Shown here one piece after another: positions 1 to 10,056 of a stretch of 64,000 nucleotides of DNA. Under the pieces are notes generated by a model, which was not told the DNA's origin, did no database searches, and saw nothing but the letters and a program-made list of their open reading frames with translations. Source of the stretch: Escherichia coli (GTDB lineage Bacteria; Pseudomonadota; Gammaproteobacteria; Enterobacterales; Enterobacteriaceae); NCBI RefSeq assembly GCF_044324875.1, contig NZ_CP172185.1; one strand, 5' to 3'. How positions within the stretch are numbered: the stretch's first letter is position 1; every line of letters starts with the position of its first letter. The position numbers were made by a program, and so were the translations under genes.

Positions 1-111
1 GCCCCTGTATATTCCGGCTCTCTGATAATGTGGTCGGATGTGTTGATTAAATAGTTTGTGCGAAAAATGCACCTGTAACCATCAGTTAACAACGGATATA
101 CAGGGGGGACC

Positions 112-282
112 ATGAATGATAAGGGGGTGCCGTTTGATGTGCTCCTGCAAAAGCTGAATGCTGCACGCGCCGCAAGGGAACGTGAGCGCATGAGTAATAA
201 CCCTGTCCCTCCTGAATTACCTCGCCCTGAACATTTTCCGCTTGAGGATTTCATCAGGGGACGAATCCGAACAAAACGATAA
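112..282 (+). CDS. hypothetical small protein (56 aa) in mobile island; C-terminal motif FPLEDFI shared with ORF 526..720
   Basis: ATG at 112, stop TAA at 280-282, translated by hand; below the 60-aa cutoff of the ORF track; no family recognised. Confidence 0.25.
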   Translation: MNDKGVPFDVLLQKLNAARAARERERMSNNPVPPELPRPEHFPLEDFIRGRIRTKR

Positions 283-525
283 CCGCCGCCGTGATATGAG
301 GCATCACGACGCAATGCATTACAGGTGAGCACCATGAACAAATCCATATTATCCCCCACAGTTCTGGACGTAAACACAAAGCAGCGACAGATATTATTAC
401 GCGCCGTCATTAAAGCCAGACACGAGAAATTAAACCAAATCTTAAGATAAGATACGCCGCTACCGCTGTAAGTCTTCATCAGAAACAGAAAACGCCAGAG
501 CAGATGAGCACGGAGGTAACTCTTT

Positions 526-720
526 ATGAAAATAAACGAATCAGGGGAAATTACCGAAGCCAGCGTGGTACGCCAGCGGAGGCGGGAACGACGGGTACGG
601 CCCCCCGCGCCATCCGATAATTTCCCGCTTGAGCGCTTCATCAGTGAACGGCCCCGCATACGCTGGAACGGCACAACCCCATACCCCGAGGAGAGACAGA
701 CAAAAAACAAACAGCGATGA
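526..720 (+). CDS. hypothetical small protein (64 aa), paralog-like to ORF 112..282 (motif FPLERFI)
   Basis: ORF track; shares a ~15-aa C-terminal motif and similar nucleotide sequence with the 112..282 ORF. Confidence 0.3.
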   Translation: MKINESGEITEASVVRQRRRERRVRPPAPSDNFPLERFISERPRIRWNGTTPYPEERQTKNKQR

Positions 721-999
721 TGAAATCTGGAGGCCAATACCATCACCCAGCCAGTCGGGGATTGCTGGCGGGCTTCCTGTTCGCTGGTGGCCCCGATGGT
801 AATAACGCGTGGTTGTGCTGTGCTCAGGGCGATAAAACGCCAGATGTATTTATTCAGGTTGTGCGGGTCCCGCCCTTGCGGGTGTGTGGTATGATTTAAC
901 ATAGCTACCTCGATACGCTTTCTATCGTTGGTGGTTAGAAGCCCCGTTACTGCTCCAACAGTGCGGGGTTTCGTCGTTTCTGCACCTTTCATCAACAAG

Positions 1000-1051
1000 G
1001 TGTTGAACACCAATTTAAGCCTAGGTGTTAAACACGCCAAGTGTTGAACAC
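1000..1051. promoter_or_regulatory. three closely spaced 11-bp palindromes GTGTT-N-AACAC (1000-1010, 1025-1035, 1041-1051), putative operator array
   Basis: Direct reading: gtgttgaacac / gtgttaaacac / gtgttgaacac, each a perfect inverted repeat around one central base, ~50 bp upstream of the small ORF starting at 1101. Confidence 0.5.
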
Positions 1052-1100
1052 TTATTTTTTTCCTGCATACTGCATTTGTTTTTTGTAAGGGGTACACAAC

Positions 1101-1280
1101 ATGGCGACAAAAGCAGTAAACGCAAAATCACAAACAGTTGCGGCAAGGGTTCCGCATGAAGTTATGAACAATGTTGAGGCGGTAAAAATGCCTGGTGAAA
1201 GTACAGGGCAGTTTGTAACAGCAGCATTAAAGCGAGAAGTTGAATACCGCCAGCGCCGCAAGGCCAAAGAATCAGAATAA
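1101..1280 (+). CDS. hypothetical small basic protein (59 aa) in mobile island
   Basis: ATG 1101, TAA 1278-1280, hand translation MATKAVNAKSQTVAARVPHEV...; immediately downstream of the palindrome array. Confidence 0.3.
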   Translation: MATKAVNAKSQTVAARVPHEVMNNVEAVKMPGESTGQFVTAALKREVEYRQRRKAKESE

Positions 1281-1328
1281 TCACTATCAGCGCCGTGGTG
1301 TGAGGTACTGCGGCGCATTGTTTTAAAG

Positions 1329-1529
1329 GTGATAATTATGAATAACCAGGAACTACAAAATAAAGCATTATCAATTATCATGCGCCAGCGTGAGAAAACC
1401 CGCAGGGAAATAAATAAGGCATTAACCCGCACTGAAAATCTTAAAGTTCCTGATAAGTTCGCCCTTGATCCTTTTGTCGAGAAATACCCTCGGCGCTTAA
1501 AAGCAAACAAAAACCGCCCACCTGGCTGA
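1329..1529 (+). CDS. hypothetical small protein (66 aa) in mobile island
   Basis: ORF track; followed by a hairpin plus T-tract at 1621-1648. Confidence 0.3.
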   Translation: MIIMNNQELQNKALSIIMRQREKTRREINKALTRTENLKVPDKFALDPFVEKYPRRLKANKNRPPG

Positions 1530-1620
1530 CAATCCACCAGCAAGCCACCACACTGGACACATTGCCCACCAGCCAGCAAATCGCTATGATGTTCGGGCTT
1601 ATGTTTAGTGTTTTCCCATT

Positions 1621-1650
1621 GGCGACCGCCCCCGGTCGCCTTTGTTTTAT
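1621..1650 (+). terminator. putative intrinsic terminator (stem ggcgaccg / cggtcgcc, then TTTGTTTT)
   Basis: 8-bp GC-rich inverted repeat with 4-nt loop followed by a T-rich tract. Confidence 0.55.
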
Positions 1651-1667
1651 GTGTCATATACTCCCCT

Positions 1668-1877
1668 TTACGCTGCCTTGCCTGAATTAATGCGATCCCG
1701 GCTTTTAACCCATTCCATAACCTCGGACAGCAGCCAACCTACAGAACGCCCACCAAGATTACGGCGAGACGGAAAGCTCCCTTTTTTCTCCAGTTCGTAG
1801 CGTGTAGTGCGACACACTCCAGTTAACTTACGACATTCATCCTCACGGATTACGCGATCTTCATTTATTTCACGCAT
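1668..1877 (-). CDS. alpA: AlpA-family phage/island transcriptional regulator or excisionase-like protein
   Basis: Translation ...IREDECRKLTGVCRTTRYELEKKGSFPSRRNLGGRSVGWLLSEVMEWV matches the AlpA/Xis-type HTH pattern; start chosen at the internal Met (MREINED), the ORF track extends to 1964. Confidence 0.7.
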   Translation of the reverse strand: MREINEDRVIREDECRKLTGVCRTTRYELEKKGSFPSRRNLGGRSVGWLLSEVMEWVKSRDRINSGKAA

Positions 1878-2296: not shown

Positions 2297-3535
2297 TCAA
2301 GAATTTTGGGGGTAAATTCGCGGGGTCATAACAACGATTTTTTCATCATTGTTCTGGAGAAGCTCGAGACGGTCTACCCATAGATTAAGAGCGTCACGCT
2401 TTGCATCGAGATAACGGGAGTGGTTATAGACGCGTTGCATTCCTGGCATCTGGTGGGCAGTAAGCTGTTCGACAATATGCGGATCCACGCCTAAATCGTT
2501 CAGCATGGTTGTAAATGTGTGCCGGATGTCGTGCAACGACCAGGGGGCTTGATTAATGCGTCTGTGTGCCGTTCTTCCGTACTCTGCTACGGATGATTGC
2601 CCTTTCAGTTCTCCAAGCAATAAGCCCGTGTGCCTGTTCTGCTCCACCAGCTTCATGACGAACGGCAAGATCGCTTCCGGTATTGGCCTGAATATTGCTA
2701 CCTTCGTTTTGCTGTGTTCTTTCGGCACAGTCCAGAGCATTTCTTTAAAATCCCATTCCCGAACCTCGGAGCGTCTTAGCTCAGTGGTACGGCATCCGAA
2801 GACAATCAGAAGGCGAATTAAAGCGCTGTAGTACGGCGGGAAAATTTTTTCATCCAGTGCGCGGAGTAGCTCGCCAAGCTCCTTGTTTGTTAGCACTCGC
2901 TCGCTTATTTCTGCTTTTTTTCCCACATCACCTACGACCATATCATCAAGAACGTTACTGACGGCGTAGCGACGTTTACGGCAGTACTTAAGCGCCTGTT
3001 TGCATACCTGCAACAAAAAGCCGGCTGATACCGGATTACGCTTAGCAAGCTGGTCAAAACAGGCCAGCCAGTGGCGTAGCTCGCATTTATCCAGCGGCAT
3101 AGCACCAATCTGGCTGATTATGTGCTTATTGATACGGCTTTTCAGTGATTCGTGGTCAGTGCGCTTTTCCTTCGCATACGACTCAAGCCAGTAAGTGAGC
3201 GCGTCCTTAACCGTCACGGGGGCTAACGCTTCCTGCACTGTGTGATTAAGCTCATGGCGTGGATTTTTCCCCTCCGCCAGCCAGGCGCGACACTGTGCCG
3301 CTTTTTCCCTGGCTGCTTTCAGGCTCAGATCGGGATAGTTGCCCAGTCTCAGGCGTTCCGGTGATACCTGCCTGCCAGTTCCGGCCCTGTAAGTGAAATA
3401 CCAGGTTAACAGGCCGCTGGTGGAATGTCTTACGCTAAGATTGCCACCGTCATTAAAAAAGGCGTTTTTTGTGGTTGGTGATCCGCTTAATTTTCGTAAA
3501 AGAGTGTCGCTAAGTCTATGAATTGCGCTGCTCAT
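2297..3535 (-). CDS. int: tyrosine-type site-specific recombinase/integrase (P4-like, N-terminal arm-binding domain)
   Basis: 412-aa ORF; C-terminal catalytic region with HDIRHTF ... HQMPGMQRVYNHSRY (R-H-R-Y type signature); N-terminal DUF4102-like arm-binding region. Confidence 0.9.
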   Translation of the reverse strand: MSSAIHRLSDTLLRKLSGSPTTKNAFFNDGGNLSVRHSTSGLLTWYFTYRAGTGRQVSPERLRLGNYPDLSLKAAREKAAQCRAWLAEGKNPRHELNHTVQEALAPVTVKDALTYWLESYAKEKRTDHESLKSRINKHIISQIGAMPLDKCELRHWLACFDQLAKRNPVSAGFLLQVCKQALKYCRKRRYAVSNVLDDMVVGDVGKKAEISERVLTNKELGELLRALDEKIFPPYYSALIRLLIVFGCRTTELRRSEVREWDFKEMLWTVPKEHSKTKVAIFRPIPEAILPFVMKLVEQNRHTGLLLGELKGQSSVAEYGRTAHRRINQAPWSLHDIRHTFTTMLNDLGVDPHIVEQLTAHQMPGMQRVYNHSRYLDAKRDALNLWVDRLELLQNNDEKIVVMTPRIYPQNS

Positions 3536-4235: not shown

Positions 4236-6182
4236 TTACTCTCGTGCCAGAGCATCTACTGGATCCAGTCGTGCCGCATTTCGTGCGGGTAACCAGCCAA
4301 ATAAAATCCCGGTGACCGTCGAGCAGAGAAACGCCAGCAGCAGCGCCAACGGTGAAAAACCAATCTCCCAGCCGGGTAAGAAAAGCTGTAAGGTGAAAGC
4401 AATTAACAATGACAGTGTTATTCCCAACGCGCCACCGACCAGGCAAACCAGTACGGCTTCGATCAGGAACTGTTGCAAAACATCGCTTGCTCGCGCACCT
4501 ACAGCCATGCGAATGCCAATTTCCCGCGTCCGCTCGGTCACTGACACCAGCATAATATTCATTACACCAATACCGCCCACCACCAGCGAAATCACCGCCA
4601 CCAGCGTCAGAAACAGTTGTAAAGTACGTGTGGTCTTTTCAACGGTTTTCAAGACGCCGTCCATGTTCCAGGTAAAGAAATCCTTTTTTCCGTGGCGCAG
4701 TGAAAGTAAACGCATGAGTTGCTGTTCCGCCTCAGCGCTGTCAAATCCTTCTTTCACCCTGACAGTAATGGAGTTCAGCCACGACTGGCCCATAACTCGC
4801 CCGGACATCGTGCTGTAAGGTAGCCAGACACGCAGCACTTTACTGCTACCAAACATCGACTGTTTTTCTTCCGCCACACCAATGACTCTGGCGGGCATAT
4901 TGCCGACCAGAATCACCTCGCCAACCACATCTGCTTTATGGGGGAAAAGCTGGCGGCGAGTATTACTGTCGAGAACTACGACCTGCGCACGACCGTTCAG
5001 CTGCTCCTGATTAAAGGTGTTCCCTTCACTGAAGGTCATGCCATAGACATTAAAATAATCGCCGCTCACGCCATTGGCACTGGCAGCCACATCAACATTG
5101 TTATAACGCAGGCGCAGGTTTTGCGAGACGGCAGGTGTGGCTGAGGCGACCCACGGTTGTTTTTGGATGGCGATTAAGTCATCGTACTTCAGCGCCTGCT
5201 GATATTGCGGATCGTCATCGCCAAAATCTTTCCCGGGATAGACATCAATAGTATTCGTACCAATAGAACGAATATCCGCCAGCACCATTTGTTTGGCGGC
5301 GTCACCCACCACGACAATGGAAACCACCGACGCAATACCGATAATAATCCCCAGCATGGTCAGTAAAGTACGCATTTTATTCGCTGCCAGCGCCCGCCAT
5401 GCCATCGTCAGCGCCTCGTTAAAACCGCTGACAAACTGCCGCCAGCCAGACGCCGTGTTGACAGCAGGTTCCGTCCCGCCAGCAACATTCACTTTTTCAA
5501 TGGCGGGAGGATTGCGCACAATTTCGCTGTCGCGAATTTCGATCACCCGCTCGGCCTGAGCAGCGACCTGCGGATCGTGGGTGACGATAATCACCGTATG
5601 CCCGCGATCGCGCAGCTGATGCAGGATCGCCATCACCTCTTCGCCAGAATGGCTGTCCAGTGCGCCGGTCGGTTCATCGGCAAGAATTACCTGACCGCCG
5701 TTCATCAATGCCCGCGCGATGCTGACGCGCTGTTGCTGACCACCCGAAAGCTGTGCCGGATAATACTCTGTACGGTCTTCCAGCCCCAGTCGTTGCAGCA
5801 ACTCCTGGGCGCGAAGCAGCCGCTGTTTCCGCTCAAGACCGGCATAGACGGCGGGTACTTCAACGTTCTGCTCGGCGGTTAAATGCGAAAGCAAATGGTA
5901 ACGCTGGAAAATAAAGCCGAAATGCTCGCGGCGCAGTTGCGCCAGCGCATCGGCGTCCAGTGTGGCAACATCCTGACCGGCGACGCGATAGGTGCCGCTG
6001 GTGGCCTTATCCAGGCAGCCGAGAATATTCATCAGGGTCGATTTGCCGGAACCCGAAGCGCCGACAATCGCCACCATCTCACCAGCATAAATATCGAGGG
6101 TGATGCCCTTCAGCACCTCAACCTGCTCATCACCGGCAGGATAGCTGCGACGAATATCCTTTAATTCGAGCAAGGGCGTCAT
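4236..6182 (-). CDS. macB: macrolide export ABC transporter ATP-binding/permease protein MacB
   Basis: 648 aa; Walker [13 protein letters not shown] signature [10 protein letters not shown]-terminal FtsX-like permease segments. Confidence 0.95.
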
Positions 6183-8401: not shown

Positions 8402-10056
8402 TCCGCGCGACCGCGCGCCAGCCACAGCACGCGTGAGAACATTTTTTTCAGCAGCGTCGGTACGGAATCCACACCACGACGTCCTGCCTCCATTGCCACT
8501 TCAATGGCAAGATCGGGTTTGGAAGAGCGATGGATCGCTTTCGAGATAATTTTGCGCAGATTCATCGGTACATTTTCCGGGATTTGAGCCACGCGGTGGA
8601 ACACATCGGAAAATCCCTGGCGATACATAAAATGTTCCATATCCAGCGCCGGTAACGCCGTTAAATGTTCTCGTTCGGCTTCCCGATCGTTATTCAACAG
8701 GCTGCGTACCGTAGCGGCATATTTCTTCCCTGCTTCATCGCCATCGACCAGTACATGCCATTCAATCCCCATTCGCCGGGCAAATTTAACCAGTGGCTTT
8801 AGCCCGGACTGGGCAAACTCAATGACCTTGATCCCTTCGGCATCAAAATGATGTCCGCACTGACGCGCCAGTTCATTGATAACCCAGGTTTCCGTTTCGC
8901 CTTCCACCAGCAGCCAGCAGCGTGCAAACAACGATGACGGACGATTAAAACGAATGTGGAAAGAGATGCGTCGGCTATCTTCGGTACTCAAACCACTCGG
9001 CCCCAGACGCCAGGCGGCAACGCGCGAGGACTCACGTACCAGTCGGCAAACATGCTCTACTGGCGTTAACGAAAGCAACTCACCCGAGTTGGTGGTGGCA
9101 ATGCGCTGCAATGGCAGAAGATTCAACAGATGCCAGGCAACTGAAAGCATAATGGGGTGTAAACGGGTTTCTGGATCTTCGATCAGCAACAATGGACGGG
9201 CGTCTTTATCCAGTCGCAATGTGCCTTTTGCCTGCAATAAAGTAGCAAACAGGCCGAGCAAAATAACCCGATACGAGCGCCCTCCAGGTCGGTCAATCAT
9301 CCTGTTGATGATATCCAGATAGCGCCAGCTTCGTTGCTCATTGCTGGCCCGCCGCCGCATTAAACGATATCGCGCCTGTCCGGCCCCCTGCTCAGAGAAA
9401 TAATGCTCAAGCAGCTGTACCATTGCGGAAAGTCCCTGACGAATCTGCCCATCAGAGAGATTTTGCGGATGTGAGGATAGCTCACGGGCGAGGAAATCGA
9501 GCTGGCGCGCGGTGACTTCCACATTAGGGACATTTGGCACCGTGCCGTTACGAATACGGCGCATAAAACGGGCATCACGCAAGCGCAGCACCGGCATTAA
9601 ACGCACCAGATGGCGTGCCTGGTCGTTAATATCCTCGACATCAATCGGATGTCCGTCTTTATCGAGAAAACTGCGCAGTGTCATCACGCTGCCGTCTTCC
9701 GCACTCTCCCCTTCCAGACGATAAAAAATACGGTGATAGCCATCGGTGCATGGCGTCCAGCACGCTTCCAGCGGCCGATAGCGGCGAACCCGATGTCGGC
9801 CTGGCAGCGATTCGCGGAAGGTCAAAATAATATGCAGATGATGTTCTCGCCCGTTGATATCTCCCGGCGGGAACCAGAAATCGTCGCGCTCAAAATGGTA
9901 GAGATCTGATTCTGGCGATAGCAGCAGGGTTAAGGCGTCCAGCAAGCTGGATTTACCCCACGCGTTCTCCCCAATCAGGACGTTGTTTTGTTCCAGCATC
10001 AACGACAAACGGTTGATACCGCGAAAACCCACAATTTCAACGCGCTCAAGAATCAT
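8398..10056 (-). CDS. ybjD: OLD-family ATP-dependent endonuclease (AAA ATPase plus TOPRIM), YbjD
   Basis: 552 aa; N-terminal P-loop GENAWGKSSLLDA, C-terminal TOPRIM-like region; conserved position. Confidence 0.9.
   Translation of the reverse strand: MILERVEIVGFRGINRLSLMLEQNNVLIGENAWGKSSLLDALTLLLSPESDLYHFERDDFWFPPGDINGREHHLHIILTFRESLPGRHRVRRYRPLEACWTPCTDGYHRIFYRLEGESAEDGSVMTLRSFLDKDGHPIDVEDINDQARHLVRLMPVLRLRDARFMRRIRNGTVPNVPNVEVTARQLDFLARELSSHPQNLSDGQIRQGLSAMVQLLEHYFSEQGAGQARYRLMRRRASNEQRSWRYLDIINRMIDRPGGRSYRVILLGLFATLLQAKGTLRLDKDARPLLLIEDPETRLHPIMLSVAWHLLNLLPLQRIATTNSGELLSLTPVEHVCRLVRESSRVAAWRLGPSGLSTEDSRRISFHIRFNRPSSLFARCWLLVEGETETWVINELARQCGHHFDAEGIKVIEFAQSGLKPLVKFARRMGIEWHVLVDGDEAGKKYAATVRSLLNNDREAEREHLTALPALDMEHFMYRQGFSDVFHRVAQIPENVPMNLRKIISKAIHRSSKPDLAIEVAMEAGRRGVDSVPTLLKKMFSRVLWLARGRAD

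What the first reader, a model, noticed from the sequence alone, without database searches (positions are those of the whole stretch)
112..720. Duplicated small-ORF module in the island (shared FPLE-D/R-FI motif)
The 56-aa ORF at 112..282 and the 64-aa ORF at 526..720 end with near-identical peptide and nucleotide stretches (PEHFPLEDFIRGRIRTKR versus DNFPLERFISERPRIRWNG). This suggests a local tandem duplication of a small gene; the function is unknown and both could be non-coding.
Basis: seen in the sequence. Interest (0 to 1): 0.3.

Follow-up and report, generated by a model that had tools for sequence, protein, structure and literature searches.

The report
Antisense small-gene family in satellite island
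The two look-alike mini-genes are real but distant members of an uncharacterised small-protein family that E. coli phage-satellite islands carry in one to four copies, always on the strand opposite a long stop-free "leader" reading frame; their function is still unknown.

Summary
ORFs 112..282 and 526..720 exist and share a 31-nt / FPLExFI stretch beyond chance. It is not a recent tandem duplication. Both are divergent members of a narrow small-protein family (motif F-[AP]-L-[ED]-x-F-[LIV]; about 73 clusters at 90% identity, nearly all E. coli; PHROG 21027, no known function).

The window holds four copies: 112..282, a decayed copy at 334..507, 526..720, and the copy in the family's usual position at 1338..1529. 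The region is the regulatory zone of a PICI phage satellite (int 2297..3535, alpA 1668..1877).

In 48 of 50 family genes from 53 islands, the gene lies antisense inside a long stop-free frame that starts behind alpA and usually ends with an Icd/Kil-like domain. This matches the phage P4 eta/kil nested-gene layout. The phase is always the one where wobble positions of both strands coincide.

ORF1-ORF3 sit in a 753-bp cassette fused to the 3' end of the Icd-like gene. The cassette removes that gene's stop codon, giving a 662-codon frame in otherwise identical genomes.

Coding evidence favours the small-ORF strand. The proteins' function is unknown. My guess is switch or exclusion factors co-transcribed with a YlcI-type repressor. 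The antisense layout seems undescribed.

The parts
112..282 (+). ORF1, 56 aa, a divergent member of the F-[AP]-L-[ED]-x-F-[LIV] small-protein family (identical to database protein P0016)
   Evidence: The leave-out profile gives 21.1 bits against 5.0 bits or less for shuffles. Only the wobble-sharing antisense phase is stop-free.
287..341 (+). Conserved leader block: a 9-bp hairpin (287..311), a Shine-Dalgarno sequence and the ATG of the next family gene. It is paralogous to 1291..1345, and 84% identical over 58 nt (window 268..325) to the block before the first family gene of island L002.
   Evidence: The local alignment is 39/55 identical, and 1 of 300 shuffles reached its score.
334..507 (+). 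ORF2, a pseudogene of a P0015-type family member. The 38-aa ORF at 334..450 is followed, in the same frame, by a remnant of the motif (PLPL*VFIRNRKRQSR) with two premature TAA codons.
   Evidence: alignment to L002 6001..6275; in-frame translation; third motif copy at 463..482.
526..720 (+). ORF3, 64 aa, a divergent family member (arginine-rich N-terminus RQRRRERRVR; motif NFPLERFI)
   Evidence: The leave-out profile gives 15.5 bits. Antisense phase as for the whole family.
723..902 (-). Icd/Kil-like cell-division-inhibitor domain, with its own Shine-Dalgarno sequence (GAGG) and ATG at 902..900. Its normal C-terminus and stop codon are replaced at about 729..753 by the cassette.
   Evidence: NF033153 E = 8.8e-14 at residues 271-312 of the long frame. 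Sequence. The homology breakpoint is at 729-753. P4 Kil belongs to the same family, E = 1.6e-21.
1..1127 (-). Stop-free minus-strand frame (at least 375 codons) that runs off the left edge of the window. It reads through the Icd-like domain and the antisense of ORF3, ORF2 and ORF1 into the next gene.
   Evidence: In otherwise identical genomes it is part of a 662-codon frame, with 0 internal stops against 34 and 44 in the other two frames. The same holds in a second backbone, 595 codons.
998..1051 (.). Three operator-like palindromes GTGTT(G/A)AACAC between ylcI and the Icd-like gene
   Evidence: These are the only 3 matches in the 64-kb window; 0.02 are expected. They sit at fixed positions -102, -77 and -61 from ylcI in 13 loci. 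Other YlcI alleles carry other palindromes in the same layout.
1055..1061 (.). T7 tract; it is T8 in the five otherwise identical genomes. In the window it creates a TAA (1054..1052, minus strand) that splits the leader frame.
   Evidence: T8 in 11 loci; T7 also in the unrelated locus L046.
1101..1280 (+). YlcI/YnfO-family protein, 59 aa; candidate ribbon-helix-helix repressor and first gene of the rightward operon
   Evidence: NF041551 E = 2.1e-16. Relatives occur across Enterobacterales, and one source calls a relative CopG-like RHH. The AlphaFold model shows an extended segment followed by two helices; the fold search was not significant.
1290..1316 (+). Terminator-like or attenuator hairpin between ylcI and the family gene
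1338..1529 (+). 63-aa family member in the family's usual position, between ylcI and the 3' end of alpA (RefSeq WP_001064590, annotated 'hypothetical')
   Evidence: The leave-out profile gives 74.7 bits. The AlphaFold model has a helix at 3-33, a short helix at 44-49 on the motif, and a disordered tail.
1621..1640 (+). Strong intrinsic terminator (8-bp, G+C-rich stem followed by TTTGTTTT) that ends the rightward ylcI-family operon just before alpA
1052..1657 (-). Upstream part of the eta-like leader ORF (201 codons in the window). Its ATG lies 10 nt after the alpA stop, behind the Shine-Dalgarno sequence AGGGGAG. It is antisense to the 63-aa gene and ylcI.
   Evidence: In relatives the frame continues to the end of the Icd-like gene.
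1668..1877 (-). alpA-type helix-turn-helix activator/excisionase of the satellite
   Evidence: Its role is taken from PMC6092414.
2297..3535 (-). Tyrosine integrase of the satellite (island end next to yljB/cspD)

Best explanation
ORF1 and ORF3 are two divergent paralogues of a small-protein gene family found almost only in the regulatory zone of E. coli phage-inducible chromosomal islands (PICIs). The proteins are 56-82 aa. They have a variable, basic N-terminal helix, a conserved short helix F-[AP]-L-[ED]-x-F-[LIV], and a basic tail.

The family's usual gene sits downstream of a YlcI-type (probably ribbon-helix-helix) repressor gene, in a short operon transcribed against alpA and ended by an intrinsic terminator. 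Here that copy is 1338..1529.

The opposite strand of this whole zone is one long stop-free frame. It starts with a strong Shine-Dalgarno sequence and an ATG right behind alpA, and normally ends at the stop codon of the Icd/Kil-like gene. This is the phage P4 vis-eta/kil layout. In P4, translating the long frame on the induced read-through transcript protects that transcript from premature termination.

The small genes are overprinted on that frame in the one antisense phase where third codon positions coincide. In this island, a 753-bp cassette is recombined into the 3' end of the Icd-like gene. It carries ORF1, a decayed copy (ORF2) and ORF3, and it looks like a degenerate second copy of the rightward operon. 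It removes the Icd-like stop codon and extends the open frame to the next gene.

Shown: family membership, copy number, strand, phase, the open frame and its recurrence, and the sharing of the cassette between two backbones. Inferred: that the long frame is translated to prevent termination (by analogy with P4), and that the small proteins are made in the quiescent state.

My guess for function (about 0.3): the conserved short helix docks onto a conserved partner, and the proteins modulate the quiescence/induction switch or exclude phages, like accessory genes co-transcribed with prophage repressors.
For: Family: the profile search finds 73 clusters, nearly all E. coli or Shigella 'hypothetical' proteins with no Pfam domain. 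Only 25 clusters at 50% identity exist among 1.84 billion representatives. 22 of 50 members hit PHROG 21027, which has no assigned function. The leave-out profile recovers ORF1, ORF3 and the ORF2 remnant.

Context: the same DNA lies in a PICI at the cspD site (int, alpA, primase, SSB, PerC, ProQ/FinO, TerS).

Strand and phase: 50 of 50 family hits in 53 islands are on the strand opposite alpA, and 48 of 50 lie inside the alpA-strand open frame. In all 31 unique full-length genes, only the same antisense phase is open; the same is true of all 46 YlcI genes.

Open frame: it spans 190-690 codons in about 47 of 52 islands, and most end in ...AARIRQGVCHA*. In L001 it has 0 internal stops against 34 and 44 in the other two frames. 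AGGGGAG-N3-ATG follows the alpA stop.

P4 parallel: the last 65 aa of the P4 eta ORF (Kil) hit the Icd-like model at 1.6e-21. The P4 logic is summarised in PMC10111431.

Coding of the small-ORF strand: pN/pS is 0.41 in the small-ORF frame against 0.77 in the leader frame. Each small ORF has a Shine-Dalgarno sequence and an ATG. The + strand carries terminators. The AlphaFold helix is confident, pLDDT above 90. Divergent members keep the motif where no long antisense frame exists. The leader-frame translation has 3.5% Cys and 0.8-1.6% Glu and no domain hit.

Cassette: it is present in only 9 of 5426 E. coli genomes. It is 99.7% identical in a tRNA-Pro-site PICI with a different regulator and replicase, where the frame is again open for 595 codons.
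Against: There are no expression data of any kind.

The wobble-sharing phase means that codon periodicity cannot separate the two strands. The pN/pS contrast is moderate and comes from non-independent pairs.

Given the amino-acid sequences, a stop-free antisense phase is not very improbable per gene: P = 0.2-0.7.

No sigma-70-like promoter was found upstream of ORF1. ORF2 is dead. Frameshifted ORF1 variants exist (L005, P0028). So the cassette copies may be relics.

In the window itself the leader frame is interrupted by the T7 tract, and in roughly 5-10 islands it stops before the Icd-like gene. Continuity is therefore not absolute.

The anti-termination role is borrowed from P4, and this island type lacks the P4 CI/seqA RNAs.
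Confidence: 0.7

Rival explanations
1. The family is real, but ORF1 and ORF3 are decaying, unexpressed relics. On this view, a degenerate second copy of the rightward operon was carried into the Icd-like 3' end by recombination. It persists only because the minus-strand frame must stay open. This rival accepts the identity given in the best explanation and denies that these two copies still function.
For: No promoter-like site lies upstream of ORF1. ORF2 between them has two premature stops, yet the minus frame stays open. Some assemblies carry frameshifted ORF1 variants. ORF1 carries an out-of-frame 27-nt remnant of the ylcI 3' end. ORF1 and ORF3 are the weakest-scoring family members.
Against: ORF1 and ORF3 are intact, with good Shine-Dalgarno sequences, in both backbones that carry the cassette. 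The motif residues F, L and F are kept. However, all cassette copies are at least 99.6% identical, so intactness says little.
Confidence: 0.3
2. A recent local tandem duplication of one small gene.
For: Two ORFs with a shared motif lie on the same strand and in the same frame, 244 nt apart.
Against: Similarity is limited to 31 nt. Each ORF scores higher against members from other islands than against the other. A third, decayed member of a different subtype (P0015-like) lies between them. Arrays of one to four dissimilar members occur in other islands.
Confidence: 0.07
3. The shared stretch is a nucleotide-level element. It could be repeated RNA target sites like P4 seqA/seqC, or protein-binding sites. 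The + strand ORFs would then be shadows.
For: The region is homologous in layout to the P4 immunity leader, where repeated RNA sites act. The Leu codon of the motif is CTT in 30 of 30 genes, and neither reading frame explains this.
Against: Rfam finds no C4 or isrK match in this island even at E <= 1, and no complementary partner sequence turned up. Nucleotide conservation across the family is lower than amino-acid conservation: motif entropy is 1.06 at position 3 against 0.30-0.51 at positions 1 and 2. The motif survives in loci without the leader frame.
Confidence: 0.08
4. The long minus-strand ORF is a genuine multi-domain 'Bro-network/Icd-like' protein, as annotated by PGAP and as treated in the PICI literature. 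The small + strand ORFs would then be its shadow ORFs.
For: PGAP-aa and 595-aa 'Icd-like' proteins here. PMC10111431 describes domain-swapping Bro segments in this zone. The frame is conserved as open.
Against: Only the roughly 45-aa Icd-like part hits any model. Length (190-690 codons) and sequence are not conserved. Composition is atypical for a protein: Cys 3.5%, Glu about 1%. pN/pS is higher than on the other strand. YlcI, encoded opposite, belongs to a family that also occurs in other Enterobacterales.
Confidence: 0.1

Closest known systems
Phage P4 left-operon leader: vis - eta/kil nested genes (Forti et al. 1999, J Bacteriol 181:5225, as summarised in PMC10111431)
   Same: An AlpA/Vis-type regulator is followed directly by a long ORF. 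That ORF is in frame with, and in relatives ends at the stop of, a roughly 65-aa Kil/Icd-like killer gene that has its own internal start. Primase and replication genes lie downstream.
   Different: This island has no CI (C4) or seqA (isrK) RNAs and no Phage_ASH segment. It has instead a divergent YlcI-type repressor gene with operator palindromes. The upstream part of the frame is overprinted antisense by protein genes, and P4 showed no family member there. Here the Kil-like stop codon is lost and the frame runs on through a cassette.
'Bro zone' of Gram-negative PICIs (Mageeney et al. 2023, PMC10111431)
   Same: The position is the same, between the integration genes (int, alpA) and the replication genes. 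The zone is described as highly mosaic, with P4-eta-like regulation.
   Different: That work treats the long ORFs as domain-swapping proteins built from 'Bro segments'. The data here indicate that, in this island type, much of that ORF is the antisense of small genes (YlcI and the family). No Bro-N or ASH domain is present here.
PHROG 21027 and RefSeq 'hypothetical protein' WP_001064590-like small proteins
   Same: 22 of 50 family members match this PHROG (best E = 1.3e-31). The 63-aa copy is annotated in RefSeq.
   Different: No function is assigned anywhere. ORF1 is only sporadically annotated, and ORF3 is not in the protein collection at all. The 63-aa window copy itself did not reach E <= 0.01 against the PHROG.
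Phage P1 immI operon (c4 RNA - icd - ant)
   Same: It contains an Icd-family cell-division inhibitor at the head of an operon controlled by premature termination (my own knowledge; the family link is the NF033153 name).
   Different: No c4 RNA and no ant gene are present here. The satellite context is different.
Accessory genes co-transcribed with prophage repressors (e.g. lambda cI-rexAB); arginine-rich N/Nun peptides
   Same: The family gene lies downstream of the candidate repressor in the maintenance-side operon. The N-terminal helices are arginine-rich (RQRRRERRVR, RKRRRRK).
   Different: This is a resemblance from memory only. No sequence or structural relationship was found, and no boxB-like target was tested.

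Membership tests
F-[AP]-L-[ED]-x-F-[LIV] small-protein family (PICI 'hypothetical' proteins; PHROG 21027) | Significant match to a family profile built without the query | tested here: met
   ORF1 scores 21.1 bits, ORF3 15.5 bits, the ORF2 remnant 13.7 bits and the 63-aa copy 74.7 bits. The best of 400 shuffles scores 5.0 bits.
F-[AP]-L-[ED]-x-F-[LIV] small-protein family (PICI 'hypothetical' proteins; PHROG 21027) | 50-85 aa, with a helical basic N-terminus, a C-terminal F-[AP]-L-[ED]-x-F-[LIV] helix and a basic tail | tested here: met
   ORF1 has FPLEDFI followed by RGRIRTKR. ORF3 has FPLERFI followed by SERPRIR. The AlphaFold model of the 63-aa member shows this layout.
F-[AP]-L-[ED]-x-F-[LIV] small-protein family (PICI 'hypothetical' proteins; PHROG 21027) | Encoded opposite to alpA, antisense inside the leader frame, in the wobble-sharing phase | tested here: met
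   ORF1 and ORF3: of the three antisense phases, only phase 1 is open. The wobble positions coincide (window positions congruent to 0 mod 3 on both strands), derived.
F-[AP]-L-[ED]-x-F-[LIV] small-protein family (PICI 'hypothetical' proteins; PHROG 21027) | Usual position between the repressor gene (or alpA-proximal end) and the alpA 3' end | tested here: not met
   Met by 1338..1529. ORF1 and ORF3 lie on the other side of the Icd-like domain, in a cassette.
F-[AP]-L-[ED]-x-F-[LIV] small-protein family (PICI 'hypothetical' proteins; PHROG 21027) | Direct match of ORF1 or ORF3 to PHROG 21027 | tested here: inconclusive
   22 of 50 alignment members match. The per-member table was shown only for the 63-aa copy, which had no hit at E <= 0.01.
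P4-type eta/kil nested-gene leader | Long ORF that starts at or next to the stop of the vis/alpA gene, with its own ribosome-binding site | tested here: met
   The sequence reads TAA-AGGGGAG-TAT-ATG at 1670..1655. The same start, MTHKTKAT..., is found in L002 and L003.
P4-type eta/kil nested-gene leader | The long ORF is in frame with, and shares its stop codon with, a Kil/Icd-like gene that has an internal start | tested here: not met
   Met in most relatives. In the window, the T7 tract stops the frame at 1052 and the Icd-like stop codon is missing. In the T8 genomes the frame is continuous but runs 370 codons past the Icd-like domain.
P4-type eta/kil nested-gene leader | The killer product belongs to the Kil/Icd-like family | tested here: met
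   NF033153: window frame E = 8.8e-14; P4 Kil E = 1.6e-21.
P4-type eta/kil nested-gene leader | CI (C4) immunity RNA and seqA (isrK) target inside the leader | tested here: not met
   No Rfam match at E <= 1 in L001 9000..16000. As positive controls, P4 and L002 both give C4 hits.
P4-type eta/kil nested-gene leader | Translation of the long ORF prevents premature (Rho-dependent) termination of the induced transcript | not testable with these tools
   This needs reporter and bicyclomycin experiments. Here it is only inferred, from the conserved open frame.
Recent tandem duplication | The copies are each other's closest relatives, with nucleotide identity extending beyond a motif | tested here: not met
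YlcI/YnfO family (candidate ribbon-helix-helix repressor), for the neighbouring gene 1101..1280 | Match above the curated cut-off; beta-alpha-alpha fold; cognate operators | tested here: inconclusive
   The NF041551 score is 59.7 bits against a cut-off of 30, so that part is met. The AlphaFold monomer shows an extended segment plus two helices, but the PDB Foldseek search gave no significant hit. Operator palindromes co-vary with YlcI alleles. DNA binding was not tested.

The most novel reading that the evidence does not exclude
In this class of E. coli phage satellites, the 1-2 kb zone between alpA and the replication genes may be read on both strands. The second, on the other strand and always in the wobble-sharing phase, would be a maintenance-side operon. 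That operon would encode a YlcI-type repressor (the missing PICI repressor, with allele-specific operators) plus a fast-evolving array of docking-motif mini-proteins born by overprinting. If so, the 'domain-swapping Bro segments' reported for PICIs would partly be shadows of shuffled small genes, and ORF1-ORF3 would be a second, degenerate copy of this operon captured downstream of the killer gene.
Probability: 0.4. Interest if true: 0.65.

Novelty: new variant of a known kind. Interest (0 to 1): 0.45.

Why it matters
How Gram-negative PICIs are kept silent is an open question. [quoted passage not shown]

The finding led to a counter-transcribed operon hidden inside what genome annotation calls a 477-662-aa 'Icd-like protein'. 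That operon contains a YlcI-type DNA-binding candidate with allele-specific operator triplets, followed by the small-protein family. This yields concrete candidates to delete, tag and pull down.

The fixed wobble-sharing antisense phase, seen in 31 unique family genes and 46 YlcI genes, is also a clean natural case for studying overlapping genes and overprinting. It also warns that 'domain-swapping' ORFs in satellite regulatory zones may be annotation shadows.

The two ORFs of the finding are, by themselves, minor and possibly decaying members.

Tried and rejected
- Rfam on the island at E <= 1 found nothing. This rules out a P4/P1-type C4 RNA system here; the controls were positive.
- blastn of window 1..1700 against 50,697 phage records gave no match. 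tblastn with the Icd-like peptide found only one cf-PICI-like record.
- Pfam and NCBIfam on ORF1, ORF2, ORF3 and the 63-aa copy gave only sub-threshold noise (CRF, Med10 and similar).
- PDB sequence searches with the family profile and with YlcI gave nothing significant. Foldseek of the YlcI model against the PDB gave nothing significant. I did not run a fold search on the family model, because it is one long helix plus a short helix.
- The promoter scan found no + strand promoter for ORF1-ORF3. Reading candidate hexamers by eye was inconclusive and I dropped it.
- I first took codon-position entropy as proof that the + strand codes. I withdrew this on realising that the two frames share wobble positions.
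- I rejected the idea that the minus-strand RNA is C-rich and G-poor (a Rho loading site) because the opposite genes are purine-rich. Composition is balanced: on the + strand G is 0.232 and C is 0.247.
- Synonymous-codon resampling showed only weak per-gene evidence for selected avoidance of antisense stops (P = 0.2-0.7).
- I considered two functional ideas: mimicry of the FtsZ C-terminal peptide, and a lambda N/Nun-like arginine-rich RNA-binding motif. Both are recalled resemblances that I could not test, so they are listed only as leads.
- I considered AlphaFold on fused chains for partner screening and did not run it, because the tool returns no interface metrics.
- Literature searches for YlcI/YnfO, Icd-like and PICI repressors found no description of these small genes. 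Forti et al. 1999 (PMC94026) is not held, so I cite it through PMC10111431.
Full report
**1. The observation**

ORF1 is 112..282 (56 aa) and ORF3 is 526..720 (64 aa). Both are on the + strand and both are preceded by Shine-Dalgarno-like sequences. Their best local nucleotide alignment is 31 nt with 25 identities; 0 of 500 shuffles reached its score. The protein local score of 51 was reached by 1 of 2000 shuffles. The similarity is real, but it is confined to the motif FPLE-FI and a few basic residues.

**2. More copies in the window**

A repeat search and ORF reading showed more copies.
- A 63-aa ORF at 1338..1529 carries ...PDKFALDPFVEKYPRR.
- The 38-aa ORF at 334..450 continues in the same frame, across two TAA codons, into ...PLPL*VFIRNRKRQSR. 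It aligns with an intact 67-aa gene of another island, so it is a pseudogene copy.
- A 55-nt block after ORF1's stop (287..341: hairpin, Shine-Dalgarno sequence, ATG) resembles the block after the stop of the YlcI gene (1291..1345). It is 39/55 identical, and 1 of 300 shuffles reached that score.
- A 27-nt piece of the ylcI 3' end recurs, out of frame, inside ORF1.

So window 112..507 looks like a degenerate second copy of the module at 1101..1529. That evidence is modest.

**3. Where this is**

Window 1..2300 matches five complete E. coli genomes with no substitutions and a single 1-nt indel, the T7/T8 tract of section 8. There it lies in a roughly 9.5-kb island next to cspD. The island carries an integrase, an AlpA-type regulator, a primase, SSB, PerC, ProQ/FinO and TerS. 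This is a Gram-negative PICI satellite.

RefSeq annotates a 477-aa 'host cell division inhibitor Icd-like protein' on the minus strand across the whole finding. In fact the minus strand of L001 has a 662-codon frame with no internal stop, from 10 nt behind alpA to the stop of the gene beyond the window's left edge. The other two minus frames have 34 and 44 stops. Only residues 271-312 hit any model: NF033153, Icd-like, E = 8.8e-14. Pfam finds nothing.

**4. The family**

A profile of eight motif-bearing ORFs from three islands found 73 clusters at 90% identity. Nearly all are E. coli or Shigella 'hypothetical' proteins of 56-82 aa without Pfam domains. An exhaustive HMM search of 1.84 billion representatives found only 25 clusters at 50% identity. 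22 of 50 members match PHROG 21027, which has no assigned function. A profile built without ORF1 and ORF3 still recovers both, and the ORF2 remnant too.

AlphaFold with the family alignment gives a confident long N-terminal helix (residues 3-33), a short helix on the motif (44-49) and a disordered basic tail. ORF1 and ORF3 are each closer to members from other islands than to each other. Other islands carry one to four dissimilar members in a row. This is a gene family shuffled among islands, not a fresh tandem duplication.

**5. The opposite strand**

I fetched 49 more islands through close AlpA relatives. In about 47 of 52 islands, one frame co-directional with alpA is stop-free for 190-690 codons, starting right behind alpA. 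In most it ends exactly at the C-terminus of the Icd-like domain (...AARIRQGVCHA*).

- All 50 family hits are on the other strand, and 48 lie wholly inside that frame.
- In all 31 unique full-length genes, only the same antisense phase is open.
- The 46 YlcI genes behave identically.

That phase is the one in which the third codon positions of the two strands coincide; I checked this on the window coordinates. More distant islands show the same arrangement: L059 has a 493-codon frame and L060 a 552-codon frame.

**6. The known precedent**

In phage P4, the ORF that follows and slightly overlaps vis (the AlpA homologue) is 214 codons long. Its last 65 residues are Kil, and they hit the Icd-like model at E = 1.6e-21. 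PMC10111431 summarises Forti et al. 1999 as follows. Kil is translated from an internal start on the constitutive transcript. Full-length Eta is translated only from the upstream late promoter and is coupled to the alpA homologue. Its translation prevents termination, so the late transcript reads through.

The window has the same grammar: alpA stop TAA, then AGGGGAG, then ATG at 1657, and an Icd-like gene with its own GAGG and ATG at 902. It differs in two ways. It has no C4/CI RNA, no isrK/seqA RNA and no Phage_ASH segment, whereas P4 and island L002 have them. In their place is a divergent YlcI-family gene with three GTGTT(G/A)AACAC palindromes. These are the only three matches in the 64-kb window, where 0.02 are expected.

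**7. Which strand codes?**

Evidence for the small-ORF strand:
- Each small ORF has a Shine-Dalgarno sequence and an ATG.
- The + strand has intrinsic terminators after ylcI (1290..1316) and after the 63-aa gene (1621..1640).
- pN/pS is 0.41 in the small-ORF frame against 0.77 in the leader frame.
- AlphaFold predicts a confident helix.
- YlcI is a curated family with relatives across Enterobacterales.
- The most divergent family members form a tandem pair between IS fragments, with no long antisense frame, yet keep RFALEDY/RFALDDF.
- The leader-frame translation is Cys-rich, very Glu-poor and has no domain hits.

Caveats:
- The 3-periodic entropy (0.51 / 0.30 / 1.06) does not discriminate, because wobble positions are shared.
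- Per-gene avoidance of antisense stops is only weakly improbable.
- The pN/pS pairs are not independent.

I conclude that both strands are maintained. One is maintained for its proteins. The other is maintained for being open.

**8. The cassette**

Window 1..753 occurs in only 9 of 5426 complete E. coli genomes. In four of them, as seen in the one examined (L055), it sits in a different PICI with a tRNA-Pro site, a different HTH regulator and a RepA helicase. There the same junction (...VMVLASRFHHRC...) again gives one open frame, of 595 codons.

Homology with the common islands ends at about 729-753, inside the 3' end of the Icd-like gene. So the cassette replaced the last 8 or so codons and the stop codon. 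Only short pieces match other islands.

In the window itself, a T7 tract (1055..1061) replaces the T8 of the otherwise identical genomes. This puts a TAA into the leader frame at 1052. The frame is therefore split into 1657->1052 and 1127->beyond the left edge. An unrelated assembly shows the same T7.

**9. How it most likely works**

*Shown:* family membership, copy number, strand, phase, the open frame and its recurrence, and the sharing of the cassette.

*Inferred by analogy with P4:* after AlpA activation, the read-through transcript is translated from the ATG behind alpA. That translation shields it from premature termination until the killer and replication genes are reached. An insertion into this path, such as the cassette, is then tolerated only if it keeps the frame open.

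*Inferred from layout:* the rightward operon (ylcI, then one or more family genes, then a terminator) is the maintenance-side unit. YlcI alleles co-vary with different triple palindromes in the same architecture, as expected for a repressor and its operators.

*Guess (about 0.3):* the family proteins use the conserved short helix to dock on a conserved partner. They tune the quiescence/induction switch or exclude phages.

ORF1 and ORF3 themselves may be relics (about 0.3). No promoter was found, the neighbouring copy is dead, and frameshifted variants exist.

**10. Novelty**

The eta/kil logic and the mosaic 'Bro zone' of PICIs are published. The small proteins exist as unnamed database entries. 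I found no description of three things:
- the counter-transcribed small-gene array inside the leader frame;
- its fixed wobble-sharing phase;
- the YlcI/operator pairing as a candidate PICI repressor system.

I rate this a new variant of a known kind. Interest is moderate. The two ORFs of the finding are peripheral members; the surrounding architecture is the more interesting part.

Noticed in passing
window 1055..1061 (also locus L046): The T tract is T7 in the window and in one unrelated assembly, and T8 in 11 other loci. T7 puts a TAA into the alpA-coupled leader frame. It also shortens the apparent spacer between TTGAAC and CATACT of the ylcI promoter from 17 to 16 nt. This could be phase variation or a homopolymer sequencing error.
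   Followed up: partly
window 998..1280; loci L001-L053 upstream of ylcI: YlcI/YnfO-family alleles co-vary with different triple palindromes in the same layout (GTGTTGAACAC, TGTGCGCACA, TGGAATCCA, GTGTTTCA/TGAAACAC, GTAAGAC/GTCTTAC), followed by a T-run and TATACT. This is what a repressor with allele-specific operators would look like. It is a candidate for the 'missing' repressor of Gram-negative PICIs.
   Followed up: partly
L001 11670..13103; L055 3170..4957; L003 5551..5881: RefSeq/PGAP annotates 477-aa and 595-aa 'Icd-like proteins', and also a partial 'Icd-like' pseudogene antisense to a family gene. Only about 45 residues match the Icd-like model. The rest is the stop-free leader frame, so these are probably annotation artefacts that also hide ORF3 from protein databases.
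   Followed up: yes
motif codon in all family genes, e.g. window 241..243, 628..630, 1464..1466: The Leu codon of the motif is CTT in 30 of 30 unique genes, although neighbouring wobble positions are highly variable. Neither reading frame explains this: the overlapping antisense codon is Ser TCN whichever base is used.
   Followed up: no
L054 (phage P4) 8330..8704, minus strand: The Pfam Phage_ASH match in the P4 eta ORF (residues 37-161) covers the C4/CI RNA gene (8420..8507) and the isrK/seqA element (8615..8692). This protein family may largely be a translation of conserved RNA genes.
   Followed up: partly
L002 5138..5225 and 5619..5706: A sister island at the same cspD site has two C4-type immunity RNAs, each ahead of an Icd-like gene (a tandem eta/kil-type module). 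It also has four family genes but no ylcI. So the small-protein family is independent of the type of immunity system.
   Followed up: partly
L056 3501..4038 (also L057, L058): The most divergent family members form a tandem pair in an AT-rich stretch between IS fragments, near a SIR2_2 gene. They are outside any PICI-like leader frame.
   Followed up: partly
window 717..899, + strand: A 60-aa ORF antisense to the Icd-like gene overlaps ORF3's stop (ATGA). It is also open in L003 (64 aa) and L055 (65 aa). It is not in the wobble-sharing phase and is probably a shadow ORF.
   Followed up: no
window 30..68; L002 5909..5954: A conserved block (GTGGTCGGATGTGTTG...AGTTTGTGCGAAAAAT) is shared with L002, upstream of the first family gene there. 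On the minus strand it reads IFRTN..NTSDH. Its function is unknown; it could be a promoter on either strand.
   Followed up: no
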